IMG/VR virus record: IMGVR_UViG_3300045988_033140
Location: 41,447-105,446 of that record
Length of the DNA: 64,000 nt
DNA from: a virus
Direction: 5' to 3' (one strand)
In this document: in pieces, positions 1-64,000 of the stretch
Layout of the letters: each line of letters opens with the position of its first letter
Numbering within the stretch: the stretch's first letter is position 1
Position numbers and translations under genes: made by a program
The notes under the pieces: generated by a model
What the model saw: only the letters and a program-made list of their open reading frames with translations
Databases searched by the model: none
What the model was told of the DNA's origin: nothing

Positions 1-1653
1 TGGATAACCGTAACTACTCGTGGATGTATCACCTAAATACATGATACGCGTAGCATTACTAGTATAATAACTATACGCAAAATTCTTACCTTGGGTACAT
101 TCTGCTTTACTAATAGAGCTATTAGCAACAGATAATGGAGAATAAGAATCAAGACCAAATTCTCTTTCTGAAAGCAAGAATACTGTTTCATCATTATAAG
201 TTACATCGCCATTACGAGAACTATTAGTAGATGGACAAGTGCCTTTTTTAATAGTCTTAATAGAGGCTTTACCGGGAAAAGCGTTATAATAGTTTTGACA
301 TAGACTTCTAGCAGTAGAACCAATCCAAACTGCGTTACTACCGAAAGAGGTATACTGGGATAAGCAGTTCTTAGTCTGGAACGTAACTGTATTATTAGCA
401 TCTTGATCTACGCCGATAACTCTAATTAAGTGAGTAGTAGTACCTAAAACTGGGCTCGAAAGCGTTACAGATTTAGTTGTGCCAAGAATAGCACCGCCAT
501 TACTAGTTTTAATAGAGGTGCCAGTATGAGAAGCAAGATAGTTCTTTAAACCAGCAAACCATGCCGCATCAACAGTACCACCATCAGCGCCCCAAGACCA
601 ATATTCTGCGCTAACAGTAATAGTCTTACTAGAAGGCGCAGTATGGTTAGTGCCTGCAGCGACGCTAATGGTAATAGTTTTTGCGGAAACCGCAGTAGAA
701 CCATTACCTTTAATAGTAAGAGTATTGCCATTAAGAGATAAGGTCAAACCAGAAATACTAGTAGGACTATAGCTAATAGCACCATTGCCCGCGCGAGTAA
801 TAGTAACAGCTACGCCGGAGCTATAGTTATTACCATTAATGGCTACTATCGTTGGACTTACACTCAAACTACCTGCCGCCTTGTTGATTGTCCAATTAAC
901 ATTGATTGCGGTAGTGGTTCCGTCCGTCCAGCGATAGTTACTACCGGGCGTAAAACTAGCTGCATAAGTCCCCGCATTAGTAGCAGATGTAGTACCACCA
1001 ATAGTCATGTAACTAGTGTTATAGTTATTCCAATAACTGGTGCTATTGATGGATTGCGGATTCCCGTTATAGGTAAGATTATTCTTCCACGTAGGTTTAG
1101 CTATAGATTTACGATTGACTGTAACATTAAAAGTCGCAGTTTGAGTAACTCCATTTTCTGTGTAGCTAACTGTAACTACTTGATTTCCAATAGTTGAAAA
1201 AGTTTTTGGAGAGCAAGAATAACTAGTTACCGGTTTAGTCTGAGAATCGGAATAACTAGCAGTAACAACCATACCAGTAGTAACTAAAGTATCTCCATAC
1301 TCATAGGTTAACTTATTAGGTTTAGTAGTTATAGTAATCGCGGAGAGCCTATGCGTGACTGTGACTGCTAGAGTCGTAGTGCAAGTTTCTCCGCCTTCAG
1401 AGTAAGTGATGGTTACGGAAGTAGTACCATCAGTTAAGACGCTAGGGGATACAGAATATCCACTAACTTCTGCGGTTGCTAGAACCGCTTGCCCAGTACC
1501 GTAAGATGCGGTAACGACCATACCGGCGCTATTGAAGCTGTCGCCCGCAAGATAGCTGGTCTTAGTAGGCTTAGTGGTGACTTCGATCTTCATAAGAACG
1601 ATGCCGCTTCCTCCACCTTTTCCGCCTTGCTCAGCTAAAATACACTTAGGCAA
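1..1653 (-). CDS. Tail fiber / receptor-binding-like protein with repeated Ig-like (Big_2-type) domains; partial, runs off the window start
   Basis: Hand translation of the minus strand from 1653 gives an uninterrupted >540-aa frame with no stop of any kind. It has repeated ~80-aa modules (TKPTKTSYLAGDSFNSAGMVVTASYGTGQ..TVTVT). Start is TTG at 1653-1651, 8 nt after a GGAGG. The track ORF 1574..1801 lies antisense to this frame and is considered spurious. Confidence 0.55.
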   Translation of the reverse strand, partial: MPKCILAEQGGKGGGSGIVLMKIEVTTKPTKTSYLAGDSFNSAGMVVTASYGTGQAVLATAEVSGYSVSPSVLTDGTTSVTITYSEGGETCTTTLAVTVTHRLSAITITTKPNKLTYEYGDTLVTTGMVVTASYSDSQTKPVTSYSCSPKTFSTIGNQVVTVSYTENGVTQTATFNVTVNRKSIAKPTWKNNLTYNGNPQSINSTSYWNNYNTSYMTIGGTTSATNAGTYAASFTPGSNYRWTDGTTTAINVNWTINKAAGSLSVSPTIVAINGNNYSSGVAVTITRAGNGAISYSPTSISGLTLSLNGNTLTIKGNGSTAVSAKTITISVAAGTNHTAPSSKTITVSAEYWSWGADGGTVDAAWFAGLKNYLASHTGTSIKTSNGGAILGTTKSVTLSSPVLGTTTHLIRVIGVDQDANNTVTFQTKNCLSQYTSFGSNAVWIGSTARSLCQNYYNAFPGKASIKTIKKGTCPSTNSSRNGDVTYNDETVFLLSEREFGLDSYSPLSVANSSISKAECTQGKNFAYSYYTSNATRIMYLGDTSTSSYGYP

Positions 1654-1907
1654 GATTATAACCTCCTTCGTATCTAGCTCTTTTAAAAATGCCAAAAGAT
1701 TTTCCGAGAAAAAGTACACTTTTTTATGGGAAAAATACTTCCAGAAACTAGATAATAAAAAATTGGGAAAAAGGTATAGAAACCCTTTTCCCTTCAAGTA
1801 GGTATCTTACCTTTTCAGATATACATAAAAAACAAGCTAAGAAAATTATTTATGATTGACCAAAGCCCAGTTAAGTGTACTTTTTTGAAGATGAAAGGAG
1901 AATTAAA

Positions 1908-2201
1908 GTGAGCTTAAAATGTATTCTGCAAGATCAATAGATTAAACCAATAACATTTACTGTAACACTTTTTGCTAATAATTGGATTGATAATAAACAA
2001 ATTATTGAAAATAATAATTTTATTGTAAATAAATATGCATATATAATTAGTCCAACAGGAGATAGTTTTCTCGCTTGTAACAATGCAATTGTTTATATAG
2101 ACAATGTAGTTGAAACTGGTAAAATAACATTTCATTGTATTGAACCTCCTTCAACAGATTTAATAATGAATGTTTTAAAAACGGAGGTAATAACATTATG
2201 A
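1908..2201 (+). CDS. Hypothetical 97-aa protein; contains one in-frame TAG read as Gln
   Basis: GTG start 7 nt after GAAAGGAG. The frame stays open through a TAG at codon 11 to a TGA that overlaps the next ATG (ATGA), indicating translational coupling. Confidence 0.4.
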
Positions 2202-3561: not shown

Positions 3562-4167
<606 letters not shown>

Positions 4168-4745: not shown

Positions 4746-5144
4746 TTGGCAACTAATTATCCATACTATCCACAGCAACCTATGTATCCAAGACCAGGTA
4801 TTCAATATGTGGATCAGACCTAGCCGCAAATGGGTATTAAAGGCCGGCCTGTATCTTCTATTGAAGAGGCCCGTGCCATTAGCATTGATTTCGATGGCTC
4901 TGTATTTTATTTTCCTGATTTAGCAAATAGACGTATTTATACTAAACAAATAAACATGGATGGCACAGCCAGTCTTAATGTTTATGAGCTAAAGAATGAG
5001 CCAGTCGTCAGCTCTCCTCAGTATGTTACTAGAGAAGAGTTTGAGACTACATTAGCGCAATTAAAACAAGCTATGTTAGGAAAGGAGCCAGAATCTCAGC
5101 CCGCATCGGTATAGCCGCAGTAGACTGAGAAATTTAAGTTTTAA
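4746..5144 (+). CDS. Hypothetical Pro/Tyr/Gln-rich protein, 132 aa, 3 in-frame TAG (Gln)
   Basis: TTG start 9 nt after AGGAGG. The frame is open through TAGs at codons 26, 126 and 129 and ends at TAA. The track shows only the 4830..5114 fragment. Confidence 0.45.
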
Positions 5145-5157: not shown

Positions 5158-5391
5158 ATGAACCCAATGCAACTTATCCAAATGCTTAGGAGTGGACAGA
5201 ATCCTTAGCAACTCGCTATGAATCTGCTAGAAAGCTAGATGGGTGAGACCCCAATGGGTCAAAACCTTTTAAATCTAGCCAAGAATGGTCGATCCGCAGA
5301 TATTGAGCAAATTGCTCGTAACTTAGCTAAACAATAGGGAATAGATTTCGACAAAGAATTTGCCGCCTTTAAAGAGATGCTTGGCCTTTAA
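5158..5391 (+). CDS. Hypothetical 77-aa protein with 3 in-frame TAG (Gln)
   Basis: ATG 9 nt after AAGGAG. The translation MNPMQLIQMLRSGQNP[Q]QLAMNLLES[Q]MGE...AKQ[Q]GIDF is a plausible small helical protein. It ends in TAA. Confidence 0.45.
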
Positions 5392-7671: not shown

Positions 7672-8103
7672 TTATTCGGGTTTAATTGGTAGTTCCAATG
7701 CTAATTCGTAATATTCTTTAGCTTGACCATTTCCGCCTAATCCAGAATATATTCGATAAAACTCGCTTAATTGGTCATATTGCTCTTGCGTCATATAACT
7801 CTATTTAATATAAGCTTTACAAAGCTAAACCAAACGGAATTTATAAGACGAAATAATTAGCTGCATATGACTTTTCTCAATATCTTTAGTTTCCATGATA
7901 TATTTTCGAAGTTCTTCGATTTCTTTCTGAATCGGTTCAATACGAGAATCTATAGTTTTTTCTAACTCAGTGTCTTTACTCTCTTCAAGTAATTTTTTGT
8001 AATTCTTTAACTAGCTATGTAAGTATTTACAAAAAGCTAAGGCTCCCGCTGATACTAAGCCGAAAAAAATTTCAACTAAATGTTCAGCAATAAAAGTAAA
8101 CAT
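7672..8103 (-). CDS. Hypothetical membrane/coiled-coil protein, 143 aa, 3 in-frame TAG (Gln)
   Basis: ATG follows GGAAGGAGG. N-terminal TM (FIAEHLVEIFFGLVSAGALAF). 144 codons in frame end at TAA (7672) and include three TAG codons (after YLHS, RLV and AYIK). Confidence 0.5.
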
Positions 8104-8178: not shown

Positions 8179-8658
8179 TTACCAAGCGCATTTATTCTTC
8201 TTGATATGATGTGTCCCGATACATACAGCATCCGCGATATCCTAGATAACATGGATACCATAATTCTATTCTACATATAGTTGAGCATTCTTTTTCTATT
8301 CTGCTCTTGTTCGACCCTTAATGCCTAAAGTAGATTTCCAAGATGCGGCGAGAACTGTTGAATGAGGAATCTGGATTTCTTGTAGTAACTCTGATACAAC
8401 TCCATAAACCTCTGCCAAGACCTTAAAGGTCTAAACATTATTAGCCACATTGTTCTATTGCTAAATATCTTCAAAGATTACTTCGTCGATATTATAATCT
8501 GCAACTAAAGTCTAAATACCCTATCGCAACTAAACTAGTCTAATATCAGTATTTGGATCATCTAAAGAAATCTTGCCGTAGGACTTCAATTCACCATCTT
8601 CAAAGATAGCCCACCCAGTAACCTTTGAGGCTTGGTCGAGGGCTAACAAGCGACTCAT
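8179..8658 (-). CDS. RuvC-like Holliday junction resolvase, 159 aa, about 11 in-frame TAG (Gln)
   Basis: MSRLLALDQASKVTGWAIFEDGELKSYGKI is a RuvC N-terminus with the catalytic Asp. Further acidic residues (IFED, DIADAV) sit at expected positions. Start overlaps the dUTPase stop (TAATG). 160 codons are in frame only if TAG is sense. The track ORF 8625..8984 (+) is considered spurious. Confidence 0.75.
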
Positions 8659-9224: not shown

Positions 9225-9466
9225 TACTCTTCCTCCATACTGATAGGCATAACCCCTTCAGGGTCTTTCTCATTGTCGATAGTAATAGTAGCAGTCACAA
9301 GCTGATACTCTTCAATGATCTCGCCTTTTGCCTTAATATATTTAGTAGCGTACTTAAAGGAAGTTAACTCGCCAATACAATTCTTGTCAAGCCACTTCCG
9401 CAGACGAAGAGCATCTTCGACAGTAGGTACGCGATACACATTCGTTGTTTTCAAAGTATACATCAT
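9224..9466 (-). CDS. Hypothetical protein (80 aa)
   Basis: Intact ORF in a coupled string of small genes (TAATG overlap with the upstream gene). Confidence 0.4.
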   Translation of the reverse strand: MMYTLKTTNVYRVPTVEDALRLRKWLDKNCIGELTSFKYATKYIKAKGEIIEEYQLVTATITIDNEKDPEGVMPISMEEE

Positions 9467-9723
9467 TAAATACCTTCCACTTCAATTTTTTGCTTTGTGT
9501 AATTACTTGTAATTAACTGTTGTCTAATTTCTTCTACTACATGGGATGGAGCATCAATCTTTACAGAAAAGATATTAGTTGCATCCGCAAGTAAACCAAT
9601 ATTCTTTGCAAATTCAGAGATATTGGAGTCGATTACTGTCTGCTACTGAGAATCATCTCGGCAGATATAAACACGGGATTCCGCAGAAAATGGATCGTAA
9701 TGAACTACTAATACATCGTTCAT
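9466..9723 (-). CDS. Hypothetical protein (85 aa) with 1 in-frame TAG
   Basis: ATG overlaps the TGA of the upstream gene (ATGA). Translation MNDVLVVHYDPFSAESRVYICRDDSQ[Q]QTVIDS...EVEGI; TAA stop overlaps the next ATG. Confidence 0.4.
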
Positions 9724-10064
9724 ACTTCAATCACCCCTTGTGTATAGTCAAACATGGCATACATTGAGCAAGTTTTATCTTGCTGAATCCAGAATTCGAC
9801 CATGTCATTTTGCACTTCGATGCCTTTTAAAACGCCCAATGTTTTAGCAACATCAATCATTTCAAAAGCCATCTTCTTTACATCATGCTCTTGATTATAG
9901 GTATATACAGTGTAGTATCTACCATCTACATTTAACATCATGTAGTATTTAGAGTCATGCTCAGTTAGAAACTGTTCAAGCTTTTCAGTTGCCCTGCGGA
10001 TTTCAGCCTTCGGCATCTTAGGAAGCTTGTTATAAGCAATCTAGTTCATTTCATATAAGGTCAT
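9720..10064 (-). CDS. Hypothetical protein (114 aa; N-terminus extended through 1 TAG relative to the track ORF)
   Basis: ATG with AAAAGGAGA RBS at 10064. It reads MTLYEMN[Q]IAYNKLPKMPKAEIRR... in frame with the track ORF 9720..10016. Confidence 0.4.
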
Positions 10065-11117: not shown

Positions 11118-13370
11118 TCATTCCTCCAATCGACCAGCGTGTTTTACTCTATCATTTGTTTCTGCAATTTTACCTGCGTTGAATGCGGTTGTATAGTTAC
11201 CAGTTAGATAGCCAGTTACTCGTCTAAGCTGTTGGATATGATGACTCCCGCAAACAGGACAATGGTCGTTAAACTCGTCCATGAAACCACAGTCAAGACA
11301 AGTATCATTAGGAACATTGATAGCAAAGTAGGGAATATCATGTTCCATGGCGTAATGTACTAGAGTTTCTAAAGCATCAATATTATTCTTGACGCCACTA
11401 TCAAGTTCGACATAAGTGATACACCCAGCGGAAGAATATCCAGTTAATTGACTCTCAATGTCAATCTTATCAAATGGAGACATTTCTTTCCATACGGGGA
11501 CATGAATAGAGTTAGTGAAATAATCTCTATCACTTACATTAGGAATTTCTCCGTACTTCTCTTTGAACTTTGTCATAGCTGTGTAGCAAAGATTCTCAGC
11601 AGGAGTATAATATACACCAAAGTTTAAGCTGTATTGCTCCTTAAACTCTGCGCATCTATCTTTAAAAAGCTGCTCAATCTGCTTTGCTAGCTTCATACCT
11701 TCTGGAGTAGTATGATCTTGACCAATAAGGATTTGCAGAGTTTCAGCTAGACCCAATTGACCAAGAGCAAGAGTACCATGCTTAAGAGCACTACGAGTAT
11801 TCTTACCGTCATAGCCTATCATTAAGCCGTTCTCATACATGAATTTGGCGGATGCCGCAGGTTGGGAGCAGATATAATCAAAACGTTCAATTAGCATATC
11901 TTTTGCTTCATGGATCTTCTGGTCAAGTTTATAGAGGAATCTGTCAATTAGAATTTGTCTATCATCAAAAGAATGATGGCCTTTTACATCTGCATCAAAG
12001 TTAATCTTACACTCCATAGCAAGAGTAGGCATGATAATAGTTACAGGACAAATATTGCCGCGTCCATCTTTTGTTTGACCGTTAACTCCATCATCATGAT
12101 TTATATCCCAACCATTCGCGGTTCTACAACCCATCGTACTAAAGTATGTGCGTGGATCGTTTCGATCATATCCTGCATTACCAGACCAATCAACATTAGC
12201 ATAATTAGGATAGAGTCTAGTTGCAGTAGATCTTAGGGCCAGTCTGAACAAATCATAGTTTGGATCGCCTGGCTTTTGATTGATACCTTTCATGCATTGG
12301 AAGATACCGCAAGGGAAGATAGAAGTTTTATGCAGTCTACCGAGTCCCTCGATAGAAACATCAAGCAATGCTTTTGTAACCATTCTACCTTCTGGTAGAG
12401 TGCAAGTACCATAGTTGATAGAAGTGAATGGTAATTGATTACCAGAACGAGATTGAAGAGTATTAAGATTATGATACATACCTTCTACAGCTTGATGCAC
12501 TTCTTTAACAGTCATATCAAGAGCATATTGATATGCTTTATCATAAATCATATATTCATTATCTTCAATTCCAGCAGTATCTGGGATATGGTCAAAAAGC
12601 TCTTTATCGGAGATATTCTCAATATACTTTAAACCTTCAATATAATGTTTTCTAAAACTTTTTCTTACATAAGGAACCATAGTCCAGTCAAGATGGGTAG
12701 CACTTACTCCACCAAATTGCTGTAAGGATTGAAGCTGGAAAATAACAGCAACCAACTGGAAAGCAGTATTCACAGAACCTGCGGGCCGCACGTCAGTCTG
12801 TCTAGTATTGAAACCTTTTGCGAGTAGATCATCAAAAGGAATAGAAAGACAGTTGTGCATACCAACTGCATAAGCAGATAGGTCATGGATATAAATTTCA
12901 TTGTTCTCGTGATTGCGGCGAGCCATATCAGAAACGCAGTAATCTAGAGCGTATCTCTTCATTTGCAAGTCAGACCCTGCGCCAACTCGACCGCCGAATG
13001 ACATTTCATCGACATTAGCGTTCTAATTCTCAATGGCTGTACCGTTAATCTTCTCAGAGAAAGCCTTAATAAAATCGTCTCTACCGGAGCGCGCAACTTC
13101 TCGCTTATAGCGATAACGAATATAGGTTTTAGCTACATCCTTGCGTTCAGACCGCATGAGGAAGTCTTCAACCATGTCTTGAATTTCCTCAACAGAGATA
13201 ATTTTATCTGTGGTCTTTACACTATACTTAATTTCATCAGCAATATCATTTGCTGTATCTTCTTCATATAAAGTGCCATCAACTTCGATAAAAGCCTTAT
13301 TGATGGCGTTAACGATTCTTTGCTTATCAAATGGTACAAGGATACCATTTCTCTTTTTCACTTGTAGCAA
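11118..13370 (-). CDS. nrdD: Anaerobic (class III) ribonucleoside-triphosphate reductase with N-terminal ATP-cone; single gene joined through 1 in-frame TAG
   Basis: The 628-aa ORF has the glycyl-radical motif RVTGYL and C-terminal Cys4. The upstream 115-aa ORF (VKKRNGILVPFDKQRIVNAINKAF, ATP-cone) ends in TAG exactly in frame (..AIEN[Q]NANVDEMSFGG..). TTG start 8 nt after GGGAG. Confidence 0.85.
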
Positions 13371-13435: not shown

Positions 13436-13990
13436 TTAACAAAATTGCCCAGCTATAAGATCGACGGCATGAAGTAAATCGCCTGCATCTTGATTTTTAA
13501 TTACTTGATAATCAATATCCTCTAAATCTTCAAAATCTTGTTCGTCAGTTGAGAAGCGTCTGATAATTTCTTGGATATCAGGATTCTCTTCTCTGTTTAG
13601 CTGTCTGATTAGACGTTCTTTATCACTAGTCTGCACATAATACACAGTTAAATCTACGAAATTATCTTCCATTAGGCATCTAATACCTTGAGGATTAAAG
13701 ACGCCTATATTGATTTTATCTTTTGATAAACTAGATAAAGTAGTCCCATAATGCCAGTCATTAAATTCAGTTGCTTCTAGCATATCGCCATTAAGGACTT
13801 TCTCTGTGAATTGGTCAATTGTTAAGAAGTGATAATTTACTCCCTCTTGTTCTCCTTCGCGAGGAGGACGAGTAGTACAACTCACAATCTCATTAAATTT
13901 ATCAGGGTCTACTTTAACGAGAGCGCGAAGGATTGTATCCTTCCCGCTCCCGGCTTTGCCAAACAAAGCGATGACTTTGACTTTATTCAT
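13436..13990 (-). CDS. Guanylate kinase-family nucleoside monophosphate kinase
   Basis: P-loop GKAGSGKDT plus TTRPPREGEQEGVNYHF matches the GMP-kinase signature. Confidence 0.6.
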   Translation of the reverse strand: MNKVKVIALFGKAGSGKDTILRALVKVDPDKFNEIVSCTTRPPREGEQEGVNYHFLTIDQFTEKVLNGDMLEATEFNDWHYGTTLSSLSKDKINIGVFNPQGIRCLMEDNFVDLTVYYVQTSDKERLIRQLNREENPDIQEIIRRFSTDEQDFEDLEDIDYQVIKNQDAGDLLHAVDLIAGQFC

Positions 13991-16900
13991 CTTCTTCTTC
14001 CTCCCCAGTCGCTCTCTCGCTTCTTAAAACAAGAGAACCATCAGCAGTCACTTCATCAATATGATATAACTGGTGACCATTAGAACTTGCATACTTCTTA
14101 GTTACAAATTCATCGCCTCTACGGATACCTTGCACCATAATCATGTTTCCACGATTGAACCAAGACTTCTCAATGACGGTTTTAGTTCCATCACTATTCT
14201 TGCGGAAGGTCTGCCTATCAAACAAGGCGAAATACTCCTGTCTAAATTTAACAGATACTACACCTGTTGTTGTAAGTAGATACACAACACTCTTAGTCTT
14301 ATTTTTTGCAATGCAAGTTCCGCAGATTCTATTGAGTTTATAGATTGGAATAATAGATGCGCCTTTCTTAAAAGTTTTTTCAATAATTGGCTCTTCAGGC
14401 AGAGAGAAGAAATCTACTAAACCATACTTTTGAGTATTCACATTACTTAATTCGTGGTCATGGTAATAGAAGCACAGAACTTCCATTTCCCAAGAGGAAA
14501 TATTTCCTTTAGCATACTTTTCCCAATCTTGCATGAAGATTCGAGTATTCAGTTCATCAAGAATACTATCTTTATTTTCTTTAATCCAATCTCTGAATAT
14601 ATCCATTTCCTTTTGATAGAAGTTATCCCAATCTTTTACATTAAAGAGGAACATATCATTCTCATTCACGATATTCTCCTCGATGCCCCCGACTTGCGTA
14701 CTAAGCTCATAAATGAAGTCAACCGCTCGTTCATCCAACTTATAATAAGTCCCATCATACTTACATTCTGCTTTTAGATACCGATTGAACTCATAGATCC
14801 TGCGCGCAAGAACTTGCTCTTCTGTATTTTCAGGCAGAAGACCGTAGCGGATAAGGCCTGGCATATTTTGTAGAGTTAAACGCTTTTTTCTATCACAGGT
14901 CATCCATAAATATTGTACCATAGCTTCTTTACGATTACAGAATTGATCAAAAGCACCACCCTTAATAAGAGCAATCATAGCTTGCTTATTAGGTGTTACT
15001 CTATAATAAAAATCAACCATAGATACATATGGACGTTTTGCGATAATCTCTTTAATCAAATCATTGTTGACATTAGTTAAACCCTTTAGACCAAACAGGA
15101 TTTGATTGTTCTCTGCGTCGGGCTTAAATCCAAGAGCAGAATGGTTAATATCAACAAGAGATACCTTAATGCCTTTGTTACGAATTTCACCAATAGCCTT
15201 TGCTAACTTTGTATAGTCAGATTGCTCGCCCTCATCTTCATCAATAGCACCACTATTAACGATTAAGTACGCGGTATTCCAATACACAGGATTGAAATGT
15301 GTAGCGAGATAAAGAGTCTGCATACCAACGAAGCTATAAGCAAGAGCATGGATTACAGAGAATGAGTAGCCCATCTGCGGGCCGAGTCCAAATTTCCAAA
15401 CATACTTGCCTAACATTTCTGACTTTGCTGTATCCAGAACCTTCTGATGAAGTTCTGGAATCTTATCCATCAGTTTCTTACCAACAATCTTTCTTGCGGC
15501 GTTGGCTTCAGCCAGACTAAAGTTGCAGATATCTGGATCCCGCAACATCTTCATCAACTGTTCTTGAGAGGGAGGTACACCATAAGAAGATAAGAAGTAA
15601 GGCTCCAAAGTTTTCTGCTCTTGTTTTGTCAGACCATTATTATCCATCTCTTGATACCACAAAGAGATATTATTCTTATATCTGACATATTTTTCCATCG
15701 GAGTTTCTGCGCCCGGTTCAGAAGCCATAAGACGCATCAAACCATTAGCGTCCGCCATTTCGAGAGGATTATGCGGACGGATTTTCTTGGCTGCCTGTGC
15801 GCCAACCGCGCTATCAAACTGGAAACAACCGATTACATCACCATTTGCCAGAGCAGTCCACATTGCTTCATCATCCTGCGGAAGAACAGATGGGTGCAAA
15901 TACTTATCATAAGCCTCTCTAAGAGTTAAATCTTTTTCAATAACGTCATCGGCTTGAAGAAGTTCAATAGTCTGAATAATAATATCCTGCACACTTGTTA
16001 GCAGAAAGTCATATTTCACAGAGCCTGCGGCTTCCTGGTCATGCAGATCCCACTGAGTAATCAATGCGCCCTTTGGAGTACGCATAACTGCGGCGGAATC
16101 ATAGATATTTTCATCAAAGAGAATAACACCAGATGCGTGACTACTTCTCTTATTTACCATGCCCTGAATACGAACAATAATGTCTAATAGTCCGTCATAC
16201 TGCGAAACCGCAGTTACAAATGCTTTAACAGGTTTTCTGCCTTTCTCTTGATTACCATTGACGACATCTTCAATTGGCCACAAGAAACCACGCTCTTGAG
16301 GAATCAAAGAACTCAAATATTGTGCTTCATCAACATCAATACCATCGGGATATTCCTCAGAACGATAACCTCTACACGCAGTCAAGATTGCGGACTTCGT
16401 ACCTTCTGTACCGAAAGTACAAACCTGGACTAGACCAAGTTCTCCTCTTTCCTTGCGGATTTCGGCAAAAATCTTCTGAATTTTAGACGGCGCCAAGTCA
16501 AGATCGATATCGCCTAACTCAACGCGTTCATCGTTAATGTAACGCCAGAAAGGTAAGTCCCATTCGATGGGGTCAAGCTGAGTAATACCAAGGAGATAAT
16601 GGTTTAAAGCTGCACACGCAGAACCACGACCTGCACCGACTGTACTTCCGCAATTCCAGAACAAATCTACATAGTGCTTCAATGTATTAGGGTATGCGAA
16701 CATACAGGTCTGCAACTTCTCGCCAATAACTCTCTTTACTCTTGCTTCTTCTTCAAGTCTTTCCCAATACTCTTTCTTGTGGATAAGACCCTTCTCCTGC
16801 ATTGCAATGATGCATTCCTGAATCCAATATTTCTCTTGCTCATTATCAGATTCAATCAAGGAAGTTAGCACTTTATAATCGTCACGGAAAGTATCCATCA

Positions 16901-17879
16901 TATTTTCTGGAACTCGTGACCAATCATATTTATTATAATGAGTTACTTCTACTTCTGGAATAGACTGATGCTTCTCAAGAGAATAAAACTCAATCTTATC
17001 CTTGATTTCATTAGAATTGTCGTAGATCCAATAAATTGTATTTAAGTCGTAGCTAGACAAAAGTAAATCTGTTGCCTCTTGCTCAGACATAAGATAAGTA
17101 AACTCATAAAATGAATCAACTTCTCTTTCTCCACCTTTGGAATTAAGATAAGATTTATGCACATATCTGTCTTCTTTGGTGAGATAGTGAGCGTCAGTAC
17201 CAACGCATACTTTTACATCAAATGCTTTAGCGATACTAAGCATTCTCTTATTTGCAATGATCTGCTCCTCGTTATTCGCTGGCGCACACTCTATATAAAA
17301 ATCATCTTTACCAAAGACATCAATACCGAACTCCATAAAGTCGATAATCTGCTCGTGGTAACGACGTGCATTATTTTCATCGTTAGCTTTTTCGCAAGCA
17401 TCAAGGTTTAGAATAGACTGTCCCAATTCTCCACCGATACAAGCAGTTGTGCCAATAATATCTCCCTTAAATCTTTGCATGATCTCTTTGAGTTCAGATT
17501 TAAGGAGCGGCACTCTTTCCATTCGACGGTCATAATAACCGTTTGTCCATGCAATAGAGGACAACTCTTTTAGACCTCTATAGCCATGTTCATTCTTTGC
17601 GAGAAGAATAAAGTGATAATACTTCTGACCCATTTCTCGCGTATCGGTCAGATAGATTTCGTTACCCAATGCAATAGTAAACTCAGGATGAGTGTTCTGT
17701 AGTTTTTTAGCATATTTGTTGACTCTCATATGAGCACTCAACGATTCGTGGTCTGTAATTGCGATTCCTGTCAATCCAAGCTCGATAGCTTTATCAATCA
17801 ACTCTTCCGGGTGATTTATACAGTCGAGAAGACGGAGATTGCTATATTCTGTATGAGCATGATTGTTGAAATAACTCAT
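13983..17879 (-). CDS. DNA polymerase III alpha-type replicative polymerase with N-terminal PHP domain (1298 aa)
   Basis: Intact ORF with N-terminal PHP motif (HAHTEYSNL..ITDHESL). Size and architecture fit DnaE/PolC-like polymerases. No in-frame TAG. Confidence 0.9.
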   Translation of the reverse strand: MSYFNNHAHTEYSNLRLLDCINHPEELIDKAIELGLTGIAITDHESLSAHMRVNKYAKKLQNTHPEFTIALGNEIYLTDTREMGQKYYHFILLAKNEHGYRGLKELSSIAWTNGYYDRRMERVPLLKSELKEIMQRFKGDIIGTTACIGGELGQSILNLDACEKANDENNARRYHEQIIDFMEFGIDVFGKDDFYIECAPANNEEQIIANKRMLSIAKAFDVKVCVGTDAHYLTKEDRYVHKSYLNSKGGEREVDSFYEFTYLMSEQEATDLLLSSYDLNTIYWIYDNSNEIKDKIEFYSLEKHQSIPEVEVTHYNKYDWSRVPENMMDTFRDDYKVLTSLIESDNEQEKYWIQECIIAMQEKGLIHKKEYWERLEEEARVKRVIGEKLQTCMFAYPNTLKHYVDLFWNCGSTVGAGRGSACAALNHYLLGITQLDPIEWDLPFWRYINDERVELGDIDLDLAPSKIQKIFAEIRKERGELGLVQVCTFGTEGTKSAILTACRGYRSEEYPDGIDVDEAQYLSSLIPQERGFLWPIEDVVNGNQEKGRKPVKAFVTAVSQYDGLLDIIVRIQGMVNKRSSHASGVILFDENIYDSAAVMRTPKGALITQWDLHDQEAAGSVKYDFLLTSVQDIIIQTIELLQADDVIEKDLTLREAYDKYLHPSVLPQDDEAMWTALANGDVIGCFQFDSAVGAQAAKKIRPHNPLEMADANGLMRLMASEPGAETPMEKYVRYKNNISLWYQEMDNNGLTKQEQKTLEPYFLSSYGVPPSQEQLMKMLRDPDICNFSLAEANAARKIVGKKLMDKIPELHQKVLDTAKSEMLGKYVWKFGLGPQMGYSFSVIHALAYSFVGMQTLYLATHFNPVYWNTAYLIVNSGAIDEDEGEQSDYTKLAKAIGEIRNKGIKVSLVDINHSALGFKPDAENNQILFGLKGLTNVNNDLIKEIIAKRPYVSMVDFYYRVTPNKQAMIALIKGGAFDQFCNRKEAMVQYLWMTCDRKKRLTLQNMPGLIRYGLLPENTEEQVLARRIYEFNRYLKAECKYDGTYYKLDERAVDFIYELSTQVGGIEENIVNENDMFLFNVKDWDNFYQKEMDIFRDWIKENKDSILDELNTRIFMQDWEKYAKGNISSWEMEVLCFYYHDHELSNVNTQKYGLVDFFSLPEEPIIEKTFKKGASIIPIYKLNRICGTCIAKNKTKSVVYLLTTTGVVSVKFRQEYFALFDRQTFRKNSDGTKTVIEKSWFNRGNMIMVQGIRRGDEFVTKKYASSNGHQLYHIDEVTADGSLVLRSERATGEEEEDE

Positions 17880-20148: not shown

Positions 20149-20215
20149 TTGATTGTTCCTCCTTTAGTAAGAGGTCGCGCAATCATTAAAAATAATATTC
20201 CTGACGATTTATAAT

Positions 20216-37199: not shown

Positions 37200-37523
37200 T
37201 TAGATGGTTGCCTCATCCTCGATTATCTGCTGCTATTGTTGCTCACACATAGCTAAATCATAGGTAATTCCACCCTTGCGGTGATCAGATTTACTCATAT
37301 TTAAGTAAAAAGAACAAACAATACCATGCGCAGACCAGGGTAATCCTACTAATGCACTAATCCATGGAAGAGTGCCTAAATAGCCAAGATGTACGCAATA
37401 GAAAGCAAGAGCAATACCAGAGATAGTTACAATCCACAATAAAGAGCGAATATCGCAAATAAGTTGTTTAGAAAATTCTCTTTTCTAGTTGTGTCTTCTT
37501 TTTCCTCTTGTTTGACGAGTCAT
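37200..37523 (-). CDS. Holin-like small membrane protein (107 aa, 2 TM), 2 in-frame TAG
   Basis: ATG overlaps the endolysin stop (TAATG). TM segments WIVTISGIALAFYCVHLGYL and LPWISALVGLPWSAHGIVCSF, with a charged C-tail. The track shows only the 37233..37439 fragment. Confidence 0.5.
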
Positions 37524-38930: not shown

Positions 38931-38961
38931 AGCCTCACCTCCAATTAGGGTATAAAAATAG

Positions 38962-47992: not shown

Positions 47993-48004
47993 TATATCCG
48001 TCCT

Positions 48005-48250: not shown

Positions 48251-48277
48251 ACTCTTTCTCCCCTCTCTTATACATAT

Positions 48278-48306: not shown

Positions 48307-48325
48307 GAGAGCCGTAAGGCTCTCT

Positions 48326-51221: not shown

Positions 51222-51238
51222 TGTATCAATTCCTTTCC

Positions 51239-52084: not shown

Positions 52085-52095
52085 ATTAAGCCTCC

Positions 52096-53274: not shown

Positions 53275-54539
53275 ACTTCGTCCTGTGCCTCCTCCATATC
53301 GGGAGTAGTCTCAGTCTCTTTGATAATACCCTCAAGTACCTTGAACTCGTAAGTCTTAGACTTGAAAGCAGTGAAGGTGCGGCGGTTAACGATACGAACC
53401 ACAACGCCCTCTTTAACATGAGTTTTGCCGATAGGATCGGCCAAGTCCTCGAAATACTTGTTAATGCGGTCCTGCAAGTCCTCGGCAGTAGTGAACTTGA
53501 AGTTCTCAATCACCGGGACACGATTAAAGCCATGCTTCTCACACCAAGCAGTAATCTCGTCAGGAGTCCACTCGCGCTGACCATTCTCGGAAGTAATGCG
53601 ATAAATCCACATATGAGACTCACCGGGCTTGCAGCCGTAGGAGAAGATAGACTTCTTACCGAACAACTTTTGGAAAGCCTTATCTTTTAGCTTGGAGTTA
53701 TCGCCGATAGGCATGATGGTATCGTTCTCAGAGGGACCGTAGTACCCCACTACCTCGTAAAAGACCTCCATACCAGGATCAAGATGGGGTTTCAATGCCT
53801 CATGGTGAGACATACGAAATAGATCATTGCCGTAGTAGCCCTGAGAGTTCTCAGTTACAACGCAACGGCGCGTACCGAGAACATAAGCCTGCTTCAGACG
53901 CTTCTTCATATGGAATAGACGACGGAAGAAGCCATTAGGTAGCTCAGCAAAGGTGTTCATGGATCGCTGAGAAGTGCCATGCATCTTAAGAGTCATATTC
54001 AGCTCATCGCCGGGACGGAACTTATCCAGATTGTATGCAAGCTGCTCGGTGTCAGTGTGCATTGCAAACTCAGGATAGGTAATACCCTCTGCCTTACGAC
54101 CCTTGTAGGAAGTCTTAGGAGTGGTGCTCGGAGTCTTACGCTTAGGGATATACTTACGGCAGAACTCCTTGCCATTGATAGTATTTACCTTATTTCCGTT
54201 CTTCCAATGCTGATTGCCAAAAACCTCATAGACACGCTCAAGAGAGATGACGATGCCAGAACTCTCGTTGCCACGAAGCTTGATAGCCCGCACGTGAGAG
54301 CTATTTTCCAAGTATCCGCCTTGAGGAGTGCCATCAAGATTCTTCCGATATAGGGTGAAAGCGTCACCGAACCATCTCTCGATCTCTCCGTCCGTAGGAA
54401 GATAAAGCACTAACTCATTCTCCTTCATATTGGGTCCAACAATAACACCTTCATTAAAACAATCTGCCAACCACAGATTATCAGAATTAGGATCTTTATG
54501 GAGATTATTCAGTTTTGTCACTAGAGCGTAATAAGCCAT
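53271..54539 (-). CDS. ATP-dependent RNA ligase (Rnl2/Rnl5-like nucleotidyltransferase with KxHG motif)
   Basis: Motif I LKMHGTS matches T4 Rnl2 (KIHGTN). N-terminal OB-like domain. 422 aa. GC-richer than surroundings. Its 5' end overlaps the upstream homing-endonuclease gene by ~38 nt, so the true start may be internal. Confidence 0.55.
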   Translation of the reverse strand: MAYYALVTKLNNLHKDPNSDNLWLADCFNEGVIVGPNMKENELVLYLPTDGEIERWFGDAFTLYRKNLDGTPQGGYLENSSHVRAIKLRGNESSGIVISLERVYEVFGNQHWKNGNKVNTINGKEFCRKYIPKRKTPSTTPKTSYKGRKAEGITYPEFAMHTDTEQLAYNLDKFRPGDELNMTLKMHGTSQRSMNTFAELPNGFFRRLFHMKKRLKQAYVLGTRRCVVTENSQGYYGNDLFRMSHHEALKPHLDPGMEVFYEVVGYYGPSENDTIMPIGDNSKLKDKAFQKLFGKKSIFSYGCKPGESHMWIYRITSENGQREWTPDEITAWCEKHGFNRVPVIENFKFTTAEDLQDRINKYFEDLADPIGKTHVKEGVVVRIVNRRTFTAFKSKTYEFKVLEGIIKETETTPDMEEAQDEV

Positions 54540-55254
54540 TTAATTCCTGTTCCTCCTCTTTACTAATTCGTTTATAGATAAAACCTTTATATGTATTTCT
54601 CTATCCATTTAATACTCGATAAATTGCTTTATCGGTCTTTGCTTCTGGGCAAAATTCTCGATACGCCGAAATTGCAGTAGGAAAAATAGCTAATAATTGA
54701 CCATCTTTATCATACTTGGCAATCGGCTATCTTCTTGCTTCCAGTGCCTTTTTCTTTGCATCTTCTCGATGACCATCTTGATAAGCTTGCTTTAATTTTT
54801 CACTTCGCTCTTCTTTTAAGGAAGGATTGTCGATAAACTTCTATTTTAGAGAGTTGCTAATCTTTTCATTTCTTTCGTGACTATAAGTCCGATTTTTAGC
54901 AGCTAAAGTCATATGTCGTCGATATTCTGGATCCTCCCATAGCAACTTAACAGATTCGCCTATCTATTTTCTAACTTCTTCCGTTTGATAATTTCCGCCC
55001 GGAGAGACATTGTAACCAAAATCTGTATCTAAAAGATTTAATTCTTTGATTGTGTCTATCTCTTTTTGTTGAATTAAATCTTCATTATCAGACTCTAATA
55101 TCACTTCTTTAGTTACATTTTCCCAGCCATATTTTTCTATAGCATATCCGACGCGCTATCCTTTATATCTTCCTGATGCTCGCTGTTCGATAGAATTTTT
55201 AGTAATTCCGCAGTATTTTTTCCCATTTGGGAAAGTGTATAAATAACAGATCAT
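54502..55254 (-). CDS. Free-standing GIY-YIG homing endonuclease (I-TevI-like with NUMOD-like region), 250 aa, about 7 in-frame TAG
   Basis: ATG 8 nt after AGGAGG. The N-terminus reads MICYLYTFPNGKKYCGITKNSIEQRASGRYKG[Q]RVGYAIEKYGWENV. It is followed by NUMOD-like KNRTYSHERNEKISNSLK[Q]K. The frame is open only if TAG is sense. No listed track ORF corresponds to this frame. Confidence 0.65.
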
Positions 55255-62365: not shown

Positions 62366-62422
62366 TAAATAGAAAAGACGGGGAAATAGCAATTTTCTGG
62401 CCATTTCCCCGTTTGAAAGGGT

Positions 62423-63913
62423 TTAGTGGATCTGAGCGTAACGCTCGCTATCCAGCTTCTCAAGAATCAGATCGAGTTCGTCCTTGCCGCTGAGAATCTG
62501 CTGAATCATAACAGGGCTAAAGCCACTTACATAGCTAAAGCCGTCACCGATTGCGGGAATGTTGTTATTGCGGGCGTTCAAGTTCCAGAAGATGCAGCTA
62601 GGCATCTTGTAACCATAGCGTGCCCACTTAGCCTTCATACTCTCAAAGAGAGTCTGGATGGCATCGCTGTGCATGCCATATCCCCAGCTACCCCGATCAG
62701 TAGAGTTACTGATAACACACTTGTCAAACTCCATATCAGAGAAGATATAGATGCGAGTAGGCATATCCTCAGGCTTTACACTTTGCTTCATTGCGGTGCT
62801 GAGCAGCATATCGAAGACAGCTTCGATATTAGTGTTCATACCCCAATCTGCACCAATGCAACGGCACAACTTATCGGTAATGTCTGCCCCCTCGAACTTC
62901 ACCAACTCAGGATTACCAGAGAAGGTAATGAAGTGGTTGGCAAAAGGACCGTGCGCCTTATCTGCGATGTACGCACCCATAGAAACCGCAGCCTCCATAG
63001 GAACACCGGTCATAGAGCCAGAAACATCGACAACAGCAATGCCATTCTCGATATTATCACCGTAGTAGTTAGGAAGGTTCTCCCAATACTTCTGAAGCAT
63101 CAGACGATCAGGATCGCCCAATCCCTTACGATTGGCTTCAAAGGCACGATGTGCAATGTCATGAGGATAGAGAGCACTGGCGTTAACCTTAGTCTCAGTG
63201 TCCTTAGCAAAAGCCTCGTACTTAGCCTTAATCATATCGCGGCGAGCAAACGCATTGCGATAAATTACGCCGGCGCGAGAAGGAATCTTATCGAACTCAA
63301 TCTCGTCCCAACGATTCTCAGACATGAGGCGCTCGACAATGCGAATGCGCTCACGCAGAGTAGAGAGAGTCTTACGGTACTGCTTAGCAGTCATGCCGAA
63401 ATGATTGCGGGTAATCACCGCCAAATGGCGAGATTCCTTAGAGCTGGTATTCTCAGACTTCAGCCACTTAGCAAGCAGAGAAGGAGTCTTGCAAGAAACA
63501 TCCAAAGCCAGCTGATGGCGCATCAAATTGAAAGCGTCCTTCTCCAGAGGAGTGCCAACGAAGATATACAGGTCATCCCAGCGACCGTACTCAGGCACAA
63601 ACTGGAGATTACGACGCATAGCCTCAGTTTCGTAAGAAGCGAGCCAATTGGTTACGACGCGGAAGAAACGACGCTCGCCCTGGCCGCCGCGCACATCACG
63701 CAAATAGAACAGGCACTTCAAAGCATGAGCTTCATCCTCGTCAAAAGCAGCCTTGAACAAAGTGATGCAATCTGCGTCAGAGCGAGTGCGATATGCTCCA
63801 CCAAGCGCGAACAAATCCATAAGACCATTCAAAGTAGACTTATGGGTAATGGCACCATTCTCAGTCAAGGTAAAGTTGGTATCTTGCTTCATAGCGTTCA
63901 TAAAAGTATTCAT
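62423..63913 (-). CDS. TROVE-like + vWA (MIDAS) protein, Ro60/Rsr-like (DUF2828-type); GC-richer than average
   Basis: Intact 496-aa ORF. N-terminal block LFALGGAYRTRSDADCI..LFYLRDVRGGQGERRFF. C-terminal vWA MIDAS VVDVSGSMTG. Confidence 0.5.
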   Translation of the reverse strand: MNTFMNAMKQDTNFTLTENGAITHKSTLNGLMDLFALGGAYRTRSDADCITLFKAAFDEDEAHALKCLFYLRDVRGGQGERRFFRVVTNWLASYETEAMRRNLQFVPEYGRWDDLYIFVGTPLEKDAFNLMRHQLALDVSCKTPSLLAKWLKSENTSSKESRHLAVITRNHFGMTAKQYRKTLSTLRERIRIVERLMSENRWDEIEFDKIPSRAGVIYRNAFARRDMIKAKYEAFAKDTETKVNASALYPHDIAHRAFEANRKGLGDPDRLMLQKYWENLPNYYGDNIENGIAVVDVSGSMTGVPMEAAVSMGAYIADKAHGPFANHFITFSGNPELVKFEGADITDKLCRCIGADWGMNTNIEAVFDMLLSTAMKQSVKPEDMPTRIYIFSDMEFDKCVISNSTDRGSWGYGMHSDAIQTLFESMKAKWARYGYKMPSCIFWNLNARNNNIPAIGDGFSYVSGFSPVMIQQILSGKDELDLILEKLDSERYAQIH

Positions 63914-64000
63914 CGTATCAATCTCCTTTTGATTTTTAGTTACTCACTTGGACAAGGGAGATTAGATTCTAGACCTTATCTTTTCGGTTCCGTTGGGTTT

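What the first reader, a model, noticed from the sequence alone, without database searches (positions are those of the whole stretch)
1..64000. Genome-wide reassignment of the amber codon: TAG read as a sense codon, most consistent with glutamine
In at least 20 genes the frame stays open only if TAG is translated, and the TAGs fall on positions that are Gln in the corresponding protein families. Examples: serine recombinase 3562..4167 (LDR-TAG-I, AY-TAG-D, KQR-TAG-AEGI); GIY-YIG motif YIG-TAG-S at 29517..30431; RuvC 8179..8658; endolysin Lyz2 domain 37523..38930; RecJ-like DHH motif junction 20216..21934; nrdD ATP-cone to catalytic-domain junction at 13023. Adjacent track fragments are always in frame across the TAG, and genes end with TAA or TGA. 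This fits the code-15-like recoding known from some gut and crAss-like phages, here in a phage with Gram-positive hallmarks. It also means any standard-code annotation of this genome is badly fragmented.
Basis: partly seen in the sequence, partly recalled or inferred. Interest (0 to 1): 0.9.

Follow-up and report, generated by a model that had tools for sequence, protein, structure and literature searches.

The report
Gut phage reads TAG as glutamine

Summary
With TAG read as sense, my gene caller gives 86 genes and 94.2% coding density, against 86.7% under the standard code. About 60 in-frame TAGs lie in 16-17 genes, fewer than the claimed 20. All 85 complete genes end in TAA or TGA. Pfam domains run at full length across the TAGs. 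Sequence downstream of the first TAG is under purifying selection (dN/dS 0.05-0.13).

Glutamine is supported by DNA, not by database translations. In homologs at least 90% identical, TAG sites hold TAG (492), CAA/CAG (30) or TGG (15, all one site). In more distant homologs Gln is the commonest residue.

Genomes 97-98% identical carry a tRNA(CUA) in a tRNA array about 14 kb beyond the window's right end.

TAG use is uneven. 69 window genes, mostly replication and nucleotide metabolism, have none. Nucleases, a recombinase, lysis genes and the adjacent tail module are TAG-rich.

This matches published code-15 phages: Borges et al. and the phAss-1 group of Babkin et al. 2023. The phage is a new member of a known kind.

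Two points stay unexplained: the suppressor tRNA has a long extra arm, and the endolysin has a TAG at an otherwise invariant Trp.

The parts
3562..4167 (+). Small serine recombinase (resolvase/invertase type), 201 aa, with 7 in-frame TAG (3613, 3703, 3910, 3925, 3961, 4000, 4135) against 7 CAA/CAG.
   Evidence: Pfam Resolvase 2.5e-25 spans 5 of the TAGs. Sin resolvase has Q at 4 of 6 aligned sites. A syntenic relative has CAA/CAG at 6 of 7 sites, and strain variants have CAG at codons 134 and 192.
4782..5144 (+). Unknown 120-aa protein with 3 TAG (4821, 5112, 5121).
   Evidence: Also called as a 120-aa product in the public collection. Codon 111 swaps with CAG/CAA in close relatives.
5158..5391 (+). 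Unknown 77-aa protein with 3 TAG (5206, 5236, 5335).
   Evidence: Relatives mostly carry CAA/CAG at the aligned sites.
7672..8103 (-). Unknown 143-aa protein (phrog_4105/4257) with 3 TAG (8011, 7825, 7801).
   Evidence: All three sites swap between TAG and CAA/CAG in relatives. dN/dS downstream of the first TAG is 0.05.
8179..8658 (-). RuvC-like Holliday-junction resolvase, 159 aa, with 9 TAG against 5 CAA/CAG.
   Evidence: The Pfam RuvC match (17.8 bits, below the 22.2 cutoff) covers profile positions 2-147/148 across all 9 TAGs. Codon 68 is TAG in 11 and CAG in 8 close relatives. dN/dS downstream is 0.11.
9466..9723 (-). Unknown 85-aa protein with 1 TAG (9643).
   Evidence: The TAG is conserved in 16 close relatives, and the gene is called as an 85-aa product in the public collection.
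9720..10064 (-). Unknown 114-aa protein with 1 TAG (10041).
   Evidence: Close relatives carry TAG (15), CAG (3) or CAA (1); distant relatives carry CAA (8).
11118..13370 (-). Anaerobic ribonucleotide reductase NrdD, 750 aa, with 1 TAG (13023) between the ATP-cone and the catalytic domain.
   Evidence: Pfam ATP-cone covers residues 3-91 and NRDD covers 117-744. The site is CAA/CAG in 25 of 25 homologs at 60-90% identity. Relatives are called as single 748-762-aa proteins.
19384..20148 (-). Secreted or lipoprotein-like Phage_lysozyme2 protein, 254 aa, with 1 TAG (19933).
   Evidence: Pfam match 3.2e-18. Relatives swap TAG with CAG/CAA at this site.
20186..21934 (-). RecJ-like DHH/DHHA1 exonuclease, 582 aa, with 3 TAG (21923, 21473 directly after DHH, 20225 near the C-terminus).
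   Evidence: Pfam DHH, DHHA1 and RecJ_OB matches. All three sites are sense codons in relatives, so the last TAG is not the terminator.
29517..30431 (-). GIY-YIG nuclease with an N-terminal TM/coiled-coil region, 304 aa, with 14 TAG against 11 CAA/CAG.
   Evidence: The Pfam GIY-YIG match spans 4 TAGs. The YIG-TAG-S site (codon 229) is CAA/CAG or TAG in all 51 distinct homologs. dN/dS is 0.13.
30768..30968 (-). Unknown 66-aa protein with 1 TAG (30840).
   Evidence: Six relatives carry CAA at the aligned site.
37200..37523 (-). Holin-like membrane protein next to the endolysin, 107 aa, with 2 TAG (37485, 37233; the second sits inside a QQ-TAG-QQ run). The holin assignment is my inference from its position and hydrophobic segments.
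   Evidence: Translation. Relatives carry sense codons at both sites.
37523..38938 (-). Endolysin (Phage_lysozyme2 + Amidase_2 + SLH), 471 aa, with 5 TAG (38807, 38684, 38660, 38573, 38174).
   Evidence: Pfam matches. TAG swaps with CAA/CAG at codons 44 and 122. Codon 85 (38684-38686) is TGG in all 23 distinct relatives but TAG here and in an independent assembly. dN/dS is 0.09.
42712..43398 (-). Metallophosphoesterase with a Cys-rich tail, 228 aa, with 1 TAG (42838).
   Evidence: Pfam Metallophos match. The TAG is conserved in 7 close relatives, and 42 codons including a CxxC...C motif follow it.
54505..55254 (-). Second GIY-YIG-type nuclease, 249 aa, with 5 TAG.
   Evidence: The Pfam GIY-YIG match scores 22.3 bits, just under the 22.6 cutoff. 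Codons 97 and 218 are CAG in a close relative.
13983..17879 (-). Example of the TAG-free class: DNA polymerase III alpha, 1298 aa, with 51 CAA/CAG and 0 TAG. Primase, DnaB, topoisomerase subunits, ThyA, DHFR, ligase and the NAD-salvage genes are also TAG-free.
   Evidence: Gene table. If TAGs were spread at random over Gln codons they would hit 37 +/- 2.8 genes; 17 are hit.

Best explanation
The window is the replication, nucleotide-metabolism and lysis part of a ~145 kb siphovirus-like gut phage of Clostridia-type Firmicutes that uses genetic code 15. During infection a phage-encoded amber suppressor tRNA (anticodon CUA) is charged with glutamine by host enzymes. It reads UAG in competition with host release factor 1, so TAG-containing genes are made at full length. 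Termination uses only TAA and TGA. TAG is avoided in genes that must work before the suppressor accumulates, such as polymerase, primase, helicase, topoisomerase and nucleotide and NAD metabolism. It is frequent in tail genes, lysis genes and DNA-cutting enzymes (RuvC, two GIY-YIG nucleases, a serine recombinase), which are thereby held back until the code switch. Shown here: TAG is sense, Gln is the best-fitting residue, near-identical genomes carry the tRNA(CUA), and TAG use differs sharply between genes. Inferred: charging with Gln, competition with RF1, and the timing function.
For: Coding density is 94.2% with TAG as sense against 86.7% under code 11, while the TGA-sense and TAA-sense controls fall below code 11.

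No gene needs TAG as its terminator. Pfam domains run across the TAGs at full length. dN/dS downstream of the first TAG is 0.05-0.13 in six genes.

Codons at TAG-aligned sites, counted on relatives' DNA:
- Homologs at least 90% identical: TAG 492, Gln codons 30, Trp 15 (all at one site), nothing else.
- Homologs 60-90% identical: TAG 193, Gln 145, Lys 22 next.
- Homologs under 60% identical: Gln is the commonest residue (158).

Sin resolvase has Q at 4 of 6 aligned sites.

A 91-nt tRNA(CUA) is present in ten loci at least 90% related to the window: identical in nine, six substitutions in L174. Two ENA contigs also carry a 91-nt one. It scores 54.5 bits against Rfam tRNA. With the anticodon masked and the insert removed, its nearest non-CUA tRNA in the family is a tRNA-Gln(UUG).

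Across the family, loci with at most one internal TAG never carry a CUA tRNA (0 of 13), against 31 of 48 for the rest (Fisher p = 1.8e-5).

The tail region of a ~98%-identical genome has 82 TAG against 171 CAA/CAG, with density 92% against 57%. The window's own contig shows the same pattern in its left flank.

Published parallels are Borges et al. (bioRxiv 10.1101/2021.08.26.457843), Babkin et al. 2023 (PMC10607447) and the proteomic proof of TAG read as Gln in crAss-like phages (PMC9523058).
Against: The suppressor tRNA was not seen on the window's own contig, because that part could not be fetched; the window itself holds no tRNA.

The tRNA has a 17-nt extra arm and a U1.U72 mismatch, which is not a textbook tRNA-Gln. 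Its similarity margin over other isotypes is small: 81% against 79% for Cys.

One TAG sits at an otherwise invariant Trp, endolysin codon 85.

Some TAG sites align with Lys, Glu, Ser or Leu in distant homologs, as expected at variable positions but not decisive.

There is no protein-level evidence. No release-factor gene was found that would help the switch (only part of the genome was searched). Gene timing is inferred from gene function, not measured.
Confidence: 0.9

Rival explanations
1. The genome uses the standard code and the TAG-interrupted genes are pseudogenes or are expressed as separate fragments.
For: Under code 11 the fragments are callable ORFs; 12 calls end in TAG. The NrdD TAG falls exactly at a domain boundary.
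Against: Only TAG ever interrupts these genes, never TAA, TGA or a frameshift. Interruptions fall inside catalytic domains that match Pfam profiles end to end. dN/dS downstream of the TAGs is 0.05-0.13. The TAGs are conserved across many strains and swap only with Gln codons. No TAG-free gene uses TAG as its stop. The tail region would be only 57% coding.
Confidence: 0.01
2. TAG is a sense codon but is read as another residue, or ambiguously: for example Trp as well as Gln, as with E. coli Su7, or Ser or Leu because of the tRNA's long variable arm.
For: The suppressor has a class-II-like extra arm, and SerRS and LeuRS are known not to read the anticodon (established knowledge). Within its own array the most similar tRNA is tRNA-Trp(CCA), with a near-identical anticodon arm. 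Endolysin codon 85 is TAG where all 23 relatives have TGG, and this recurs in an independent assembly. RuvC codon 49 is TGG in 3 relatives.
Against: Among homologs at least 90% identical, every swap except that one site is with CAG/CAA. None is with TCG, TTG, TAT, TAC, AAG or GAG, which are also one step from TAG. Strictly conserved Gln positions carry TAG: Sin Q sites, YIG-Q-S and NrdD 116. Across all 641 family tRNAs the closest core is a tRNA-Gln. The extra arm has only a 3-4 bp stem, shorter than typical tRNA-Ser arms (established knowledge).
Confidence: 0.06
3. TAG is read through without a dedicated phage tRNA, either by near-cognate host or phage tRNA-Gln(CUG) or by a host-encoded suppressor.
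For: No tRNA lies in the window. The phage encodes both tRNA-Gln(UUG) and tRNA-Gln(CUG) next to the window. Published recoded phages sometimes lack a detectable suppressor (PMC10607447 introduction).
Against: A tRNA(CUA) is present in all ten IMG/VR loci at least 90% related to the window that cover that part of the tRNA array, and in two related ENA contigs. Genes with 9-14 TAGs could not be made at useful yield by near-cognate readthrough (inference). In the family, TAG use tracks the presence of a CUA tRNA.
Confidence: 0.03

Closest known systems
TAG-to-Gln (code 15) recoded gut phages described by Borges et al. 2021/2022, in particular the large Firmicutes-associated clades such as 'Agate' (~154 kb)
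   Same: In-frame TAG decoded as Gln, a phage suppressor tRNA(CUA), hosts with the standard code, TAG concentrated in structural and lysis genes and scarce in replication genes, and close relatives in the same clade that use the standard code. The genome size of ~145 kb is in the Agate range.
   Different: Clade membership was not tested, because no Agate reference sequences were available here. In this phage the TAG-rich set also includes nucleases and a small serine recombinase embedded in the replication region. Borges et al. reported that integrases avoid recoded stops. No RF2 gene was found in the parts searched.
Phage phAss-1 (OQ749652) and the proposed Phassvirus group (Babkin et al. 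2023, PMC10607447); NCBI taxonomy 'Caudoviricetes code 15 clade'
   Same: A ~136 kb human-gut phage with PolIII-alpha, NrdD/NrdG, RecJ, RuvC, topoisomerase, NAD-salvage genes, about 36 tRNAs, TAG read as Gln in about 28% of ORFs, and a predicted Clostridia host. One of its three tRNA-Sup-CTA genes is a 91-nt tRNA whose anticodon arm and extra arm closely resemble the one in the window's lineage.
   Different: It is only a distant relative: 24 of 86 window genes find a match, at 24-59% amino-acid identity, and PolIII-alpha is 36% identical. It is therefore neither the same genus nor the same species group. phAss-1 has three suppressor genes, while one was found in this lineage.
Enterococcus phages EF1/VRE9 and Bacillus phage SPbeta (large siphoviruses with YorL-type PolIII-alpha)
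   Same: They are the closest cultured relatives by PolIII-alpha (~39-40% identity over the full length), with similar genome size and Firmicutes hosts.
   Different: EF1 is reported as not recoded (PMC10607447); the code of SPbeta was not checked here.
crAss-like and Lak phages using code 15 (Ivanova 2014; Yutin 2021; Peters 2022, PMC9523058)
   Same: The same codon reassignment and the same late-gene bias. TAG read as Gln has been proven by metaproteomics in crAss-like phages.
   Different: These are unrelated phage lineages with Bacteroidota hosts; crAss-like phages are podovirus-like and Lak phages are megaphages.

Membership tests
Code-15 (TAG to Gln) recoded phage | Conserved genes carry in-frame TAG and become intact only when TAG is read as sense; TAA and TGA never interrupt them. 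| tested here: met
   About 60 TAGs lie in 16-17 genes. Pfam domains cross the TAGs at full length. Coding density is 94.2% against 86.7%.
Code-15 (TAG to Gln) recoded phage | TAG positions correspond to Gln in homologs that use standard codons. | tested here: met
   Codon-level comparison with relatives' DNA and with PDB Sin resolvase. One exception was found, at an invariant Trp in the endolysin.
Code-15 (TAG to Gln) recoded phage | TAG is not used as a terminator. | tested here: met
   All 85 complete genes end in TAA (70) or TGA (15). TAGs near C-termini align with sense codons in relatives.
Code-15 (TAG to Gln) recoded phage | The phage encodes a suppressor tRNA with anticodon CUA (common but not universal in the family). 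| tested here: inconclusive
   The window has none. A 91-nt tRNA(CUA) is present about 14 kb beyond the right end in genomes 97-98% identical to the window. The corresponding part of the window's own contig could not be fetched.
Code-15 (TAG to Gln) recoded phage | Recoded codons are enriched in late (structural, lysis) genes and depleted in early genes. | tested here: met
   The window has 69 TAG-free genes, mostly replication and metabolism. The tail region has 82 TAG against 171 CAA/CAG. A permutation test shows clustering. Early and late labels are inferred from gene function.
Code-15 (TAG to Gln) recoded phage | Gln is actually inserted at UAG in the proteins. | not testable with these tools
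   This needs proteomics or aminoacylation assays.
Proposed genus Phassvirus (phAss-1 group) | High genome-wide nucleotide identity (members share ~80-86%) and conserved synteny with phAss-1. | tested here: not met
   Only 24 of 86 window genes hit phAss-1, at 24-59% amino-acid identity. Megablast of 10 kb of the window against GenBank phages found nothing.
Pyrrolysine decoding of UAG | A tRNA-Pyl architecture (3-nt variable loop, shortened D-loop) together with pylS and pylBCD genes. | tested here: not met
   ARAGORN's 'Pyl' label only reflects the CUA anticodon. The tRNA has a variable region of about 22 nt and a normal D-arm. No Pyl-related Pfam families appear in the gene tables of the fetched flanks. 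The whole genome was not searched.

The most novel reading that the evidence does not exclude
The amber suppressor of this phage group is not an ordinary tRNA-Gln derivative. It is a conserved 91-nt tRNA(CUA) with a class-II-like extra arm and an unpaired 1-72 position, shared between lineages as distant as this phage and phAss-1. It may have relaxed or dual identity, for example Gln plus Trp. That would explain a circulating strain with TAG at an invariant Trp of the endolysin. The extra arm might also serve to escape host control or to time charging.
Probability: 0.1. Interest if true: 0.6.

Novelty: new member of a known kind. Interest (0 to 1): 0.3.

Why it matters
There are three practical consequences:
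- A standard-code annotation of this phage breaks up 16-17 window genes and most of the tail module, where coding density drops to 57%. Such contigs need table 15.
- The family holds recoded and standard-code lineages with the same gene order, and strains that differ by single TAG/CAG swaps. It is therefore good material for studying how a codon reassignment spreads through a genome.
- Holding back nucleases, a recombinase and lysis genes inside an otherwise TAG-free region fits the published idea that recoding times toxic or late functions.

None of this changes current understanding; it adds a well-documented case from Gram-positive hosts.

Tried and rejected
**Searches that found nothing**
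- tRNA and Rfam scans of the window found nothing.
- Megablast of 10 kb of the window against GenBank phages found nothing. tblastn with the GyrB-like protein gave only ~35% identity hits.
- Blastn with relatives' class-I CUA tRNAs against the window's lineage matched only a T-arm. The syntenic Ser-[CUA]-Leu-Cys slot used by other lineages is empty here. The suppressor was found only after walking further along the tRNA array.
- tblastn with E. coli RF1 (sequence written from memory) against 4.9 Mb of fetched loci gave no credible hit.
- PHROGs gave no function for most of the small TAG-containing genes.

**Attempts that failed or were set aside**
- I tried to reach the window's own contig through the NAGPA/SPOR protein, but this returned other, related contigs.
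- A tRNA-like element with a ~50-nt insert (L001 1618-1742) was considered as a hidden suppressor. No register gives a proper CUA anticodon loop, so I rejected it.
- Database protein translations were rejected as evidence for Gln, because they already carry Q at TAG. All counts were made on DNA instead.

**Weak evidence**
- The scan of bacterial genomes found only whole-phage contigs binned into MAGs and no integrated prophage, so the host evidence is weak.

Full report
**1. Where the window comes from**

The window is 39.6% G+C and has no tRNA and no Rfam match. Exact-protein look-ups place it on a 144,539-bp metagenomic contig, ENA ERZ28622034 scaffold_44. Loci L005 and L001 overlap the window at 100% and 99.98% identity.

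The gene content is that of a large phage. It includes PolIII-alpha, primase, DnaB, two topoisomerase subunits, NrdD/NrdG, ThyA, DHFR, ligase, an NAD-salvage set, RNA ligase and an endolysin with an SLH domain.

The closest cultured relatives by PolIII-alpha are Enterococcus phages EF1/VRE9 and Bacillus SPbeta, at 39-40% identity. IMG/VR holds many relatives of 130-165 kb. One of them, IMGVR_UViG_3300045988_054378, is 97-98% identical to the window at the nucleotide level.

**2. Checking the observation**

I wrote a simple codon-usage gene caller, trained on long standard-code ORFs, and ran it under four stop-codon sets:

| Stop-codon set | Genes | Coding density |
|---|---|---|
| TAG as sense | 86 | 94.2% |
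| Standard code 11 | 85 | 86.7% |
| TGA as sense (control) | 79 | 84.7% |
| TAA as sense (control) | 67 | 84.9% |

- About 60 in-frame TAGs fall in 16 solid genes plus one doubtful gene (1908-2201); 69 genes have none.
- Stop codons are TAA in 70 genes and TGA in 15.
- All 12 standard-code calls that end in TAG are fragments of longer TAG-sense genes.
- Where a TAG lies near a C-terminus (the RecJ-like gene, the holin-like gene, 4782-5144, 30768-30968 and the metallophosphoesterase), relatives carry sense codons there.
- Pfam profiles match across the TAGs at near-full length: Resolvase 2-144/145, RuvC 2-147/148, Phage_lysozyme2 1-139/140, and GIY-YIG, DHH and Amidase_2. NRDD starts directly after the ATP-cone.
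- The chance of no TAA or TGA over such lengths is 1e-5 to 1e-16 per gene.
- dN/dS against relatives 73-88% identical, counted only downstream of the first TAG, is 0.05-0.13 in six genes. The other genes were saturated at synonymous sites.

The only correction is the gene count: 16-17 rather than at least 20.

**3. Which amino acid**

The public protein collection already translates TAG as Q in proteins of this phage group. Protein alignments such as one search are therefore circular, and I counted codons on DNA instead.

I took the best homolog in each of 260 fetched loci and kept only distinct sequences. The window's TAG sites then align as follows:

| Homolog identity | TAG | Gln codons | Other |
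|---|---|---|---|
| ≥90% | 492 | 30 | Trp 15, all at one site |
| 60-90% | 193 | 145 | Lys 22, Ser 17, Trp 10, Glu 7 |
| <60% | 39 | 158 | Glu 81, Lys 79, Leu 67 |

- The other one-step neighbours of TAG (TCG, TTG, TAT, TAC, AAG, GAG) never replace it among close strains.
- A syntenic phage whose recombinase is 69% identical has CAA/CAG at 6 of the 7 recombinase sites and no TAG at all in that gene.
- NrdD site 116 is CAA/CAG in 25 of 25 homologs at 60-90% identity.
- The YIG-TAG-S site is Gln or TAG in all 51 distinct homologs.
- S. aureus Sin resolvase, from a standard-code organism, has Q at 4 of 6 aligned sites.
- The small genes behave the same way.

The exception is endolysin codon 85 (window 38684-38686). 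It is TGG in all 23 distinct relatives, but TAG here and in an independent assembly from another sample. I cannot explain this.

**4. The suppressor tRNA**

A tRNA array starts just beyond the window's right end. Many relatives carry a class-I tRNA(CUA) there, between tRNA-Ser(UGA) and tRNA-Leu(CAA). That slot is empty in the window's lineage.

Walking further along the array through the NAGPA/SPOR gene revealed a 91-nt tRNA(CUA). It is present in all ten IMG/VR loci at least 90% related to the window that cover this part of the array: identical in nine, while L174, the most diverged, carries a copy with six substitutions. Two related ENA contigs also carry a 91-nt tRNA(CUA) in the same slot. 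It lies about 14 kb beyond the window's end.

- It matches the Rfam tRNA model end to end at 54.5 bits.
- It has a 17-nt insertion in the variable region.
- Positions 1 and 72 are a U.U mismatch, the discriminator is G73, and the CCA end is encoded.
- With the anticodon masked and the insert removed, its nearest non-CUA tRNA among 641 distinct family tRNAs is a tRNA-Gln(UUG) at 81%. The margins are small: Cys 79%, Asp 75%, Trp 72%.
- phAss-1 carries a very similar 91-nt tRNA.

I could not fetch this part of the window's own contig, so presence of the tRNA in this exact genome is an inference. No release-factor homolog was found in 4.9 Mb of fetched family loci, which do not cover whole genomes.

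**5. Distribution of TAG and likely function**

Within the window TAG makes up 8% of Gln-type codons, but it is strongly clustered. Random placement would hit 37 +/- 2.8 genes (minimum 25 in 20,000 trials); 17 are hit.

- PolIII-alpha has 51 CAA/CAG and no TAG.
- RuvC has 9 TAG among 14 Gln-type codons, the first GIY-YIG nuclease 14 of 25, and the recombinase 7 of 14.
- The holin-like gene and the endolysin also carry TAGs.

To the left of the window, TAG is frequent in the tail genes and in the reverse transcriptase of the diversity-generating retroelement (DGR). This holds on the window's own contig. In a ~98%-identical genome the same region has 82 TAG against 171 CAA/CAG in 14 genes, and is 92% coding against 57% under code 11.

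Across the family, loci with at most one internal TAG never hold a CUA tRNA (0 of 13), against 31 of 48 for the others (Fisher p = 1.8e-5).

This matches the model of Borges et al. In that model, standard-code-compatible early genes, including the tRNA, are expressed first. TAG-containing late, lytic or otherwise dangerous genes are translated only after the suppressor accumulates. The timing itself was not measured here.

**6. Comparison with what is known**

- TAG-to-Gln recoding in gut phages is established: Ivanova 2014; Borges et al., bioRxiv 10.1101/2021.08.26.457843; and the proteomic proof in PMC9523058.
- Babkin et al. 2023 (PMC10607447) described phAss-1. It is 136 kb with PolIII-alpha, NrdD/G, about 36 tRNAs, three tRNA-Sup-CTA genes, TAG in 28% of ORFs and a probable Clostridia host. 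It sits in a wider group that includes non-recoded Enterococcus phage EF1. NCBI files it under 'Caudoviricetes code 15 clade'.
- The window's phage shares 24 of 86 genes with phAss-1, at 24-59% identity. It belongs to the same broad assemblage but not to the same genus.
- Its size and mixed-code relatives also resemble the 'Agate' clade of Borges et al., which I could not test.
- One difference from Borges et al.: they found that integrases avoid recoded stops, whereas the small serine recombinase here is TAG-rich. It may be a late-acting invertase or resolvase rather than a lysogeny integrase (speculation; I did not test this).

**7. Verdict**

Both the observation and the interpretation are correct. 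The phenomenon is already known, and public gene-calling pipelines already handle it. This is a new member of a known kind, of moderate-to-low interest. Two details deserve a follow-up: the unusual architecture of the suppressor tRNA, and the TAG at an invariant Trp in the endolysin.

Noticed in passing
L264 9336-9681 (related ENA contig; tRNA array to the right of the window): A phage-encoded tmRNA (Rfam RF00023, 100.1 bits; tag peptide DNNYFDSHMAA*) sits inside an array of about 36 tRNA genes.
   Followed up: partly
L005 5451-7797 and window 1-1653 (- strand): A diversity-generating retroelement lies just left of the window. Its reverse transcriptase carries 11 in-frame TAG. The template repeat is at L005 6967-7069, and a 77%-identical variable repeat is at 7695-7797, at the 3' end of the Big_3/DUF6273 gene whose 5' part is window 1-1653.
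   Followed up: partly
L001 2196-3072: tRNA-Leu(UAA) is interrupted in its anticodon loop by a 789-nt intron. The intron carries an ORF (L001 2426-2953) that I read by eye as HNH-type and that itself contains one in-frame TAG. Relatives have the same tRNA without the intron.
   Followed up: no
L001 4113-4186 (conserved in at least 9 loci): A tRNA with an 8-nt anticodon loop (GUUAAAAG); ARAGORN cannot assign an anticodon.
   Followed up: no
L001 1618-1742; L092 2488-2611: A conserved tRNA-like gene with a ~50-nt insertion in the anticodon arm. No register gives a normal anticodon loop.
   Followed up: partly
L001 9720-9806: An 87-nt tRNA with anticodon GCA and discriminator U73 (Cys-like) but a long variable arm. 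tRNA-like fragments follow it at 9830-9920.
   Followed up: no
window 38684-38686 (- strand): Endolysin codon 85 is TAG where all 23 distinct relatives have TGG (Trp). The same TAG is present in an independent assembly (L267).
   Followed up: yes
window 41157-52620: Auxiliary genes unusual for a phage: an SPFH/flotillin-like protein (41157-42653), a Thg1-like tRNA-His guanylyltransferase (44914-45744, assigned by eye from the translation) and a full NAD-salvage set of NadE, Nampt, PRPP synthetase and nicotinamidase (48326-52620). phAss-1 has the same NAD set.
   Followed up: no
L009-L011 and L108-L111, L130, L147, L149, L152: Lineages of the same phage family with the same gene order have no in-frame TAG and no tRNA(CUA) in the fetched regions. 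The family therefore contains both standard-code and code-15 members.
   Followed up: partly
L293-L300: Whole-phage-sized contigs (139-158 kb) of this family are binned into MAGs labelled Oscillospiraceae, Eubacterium, Clostridiales, Bacilli and even Endomicrobiaceae. This is probably binning carry-over rather than integrated prophages.
   Followed up: no
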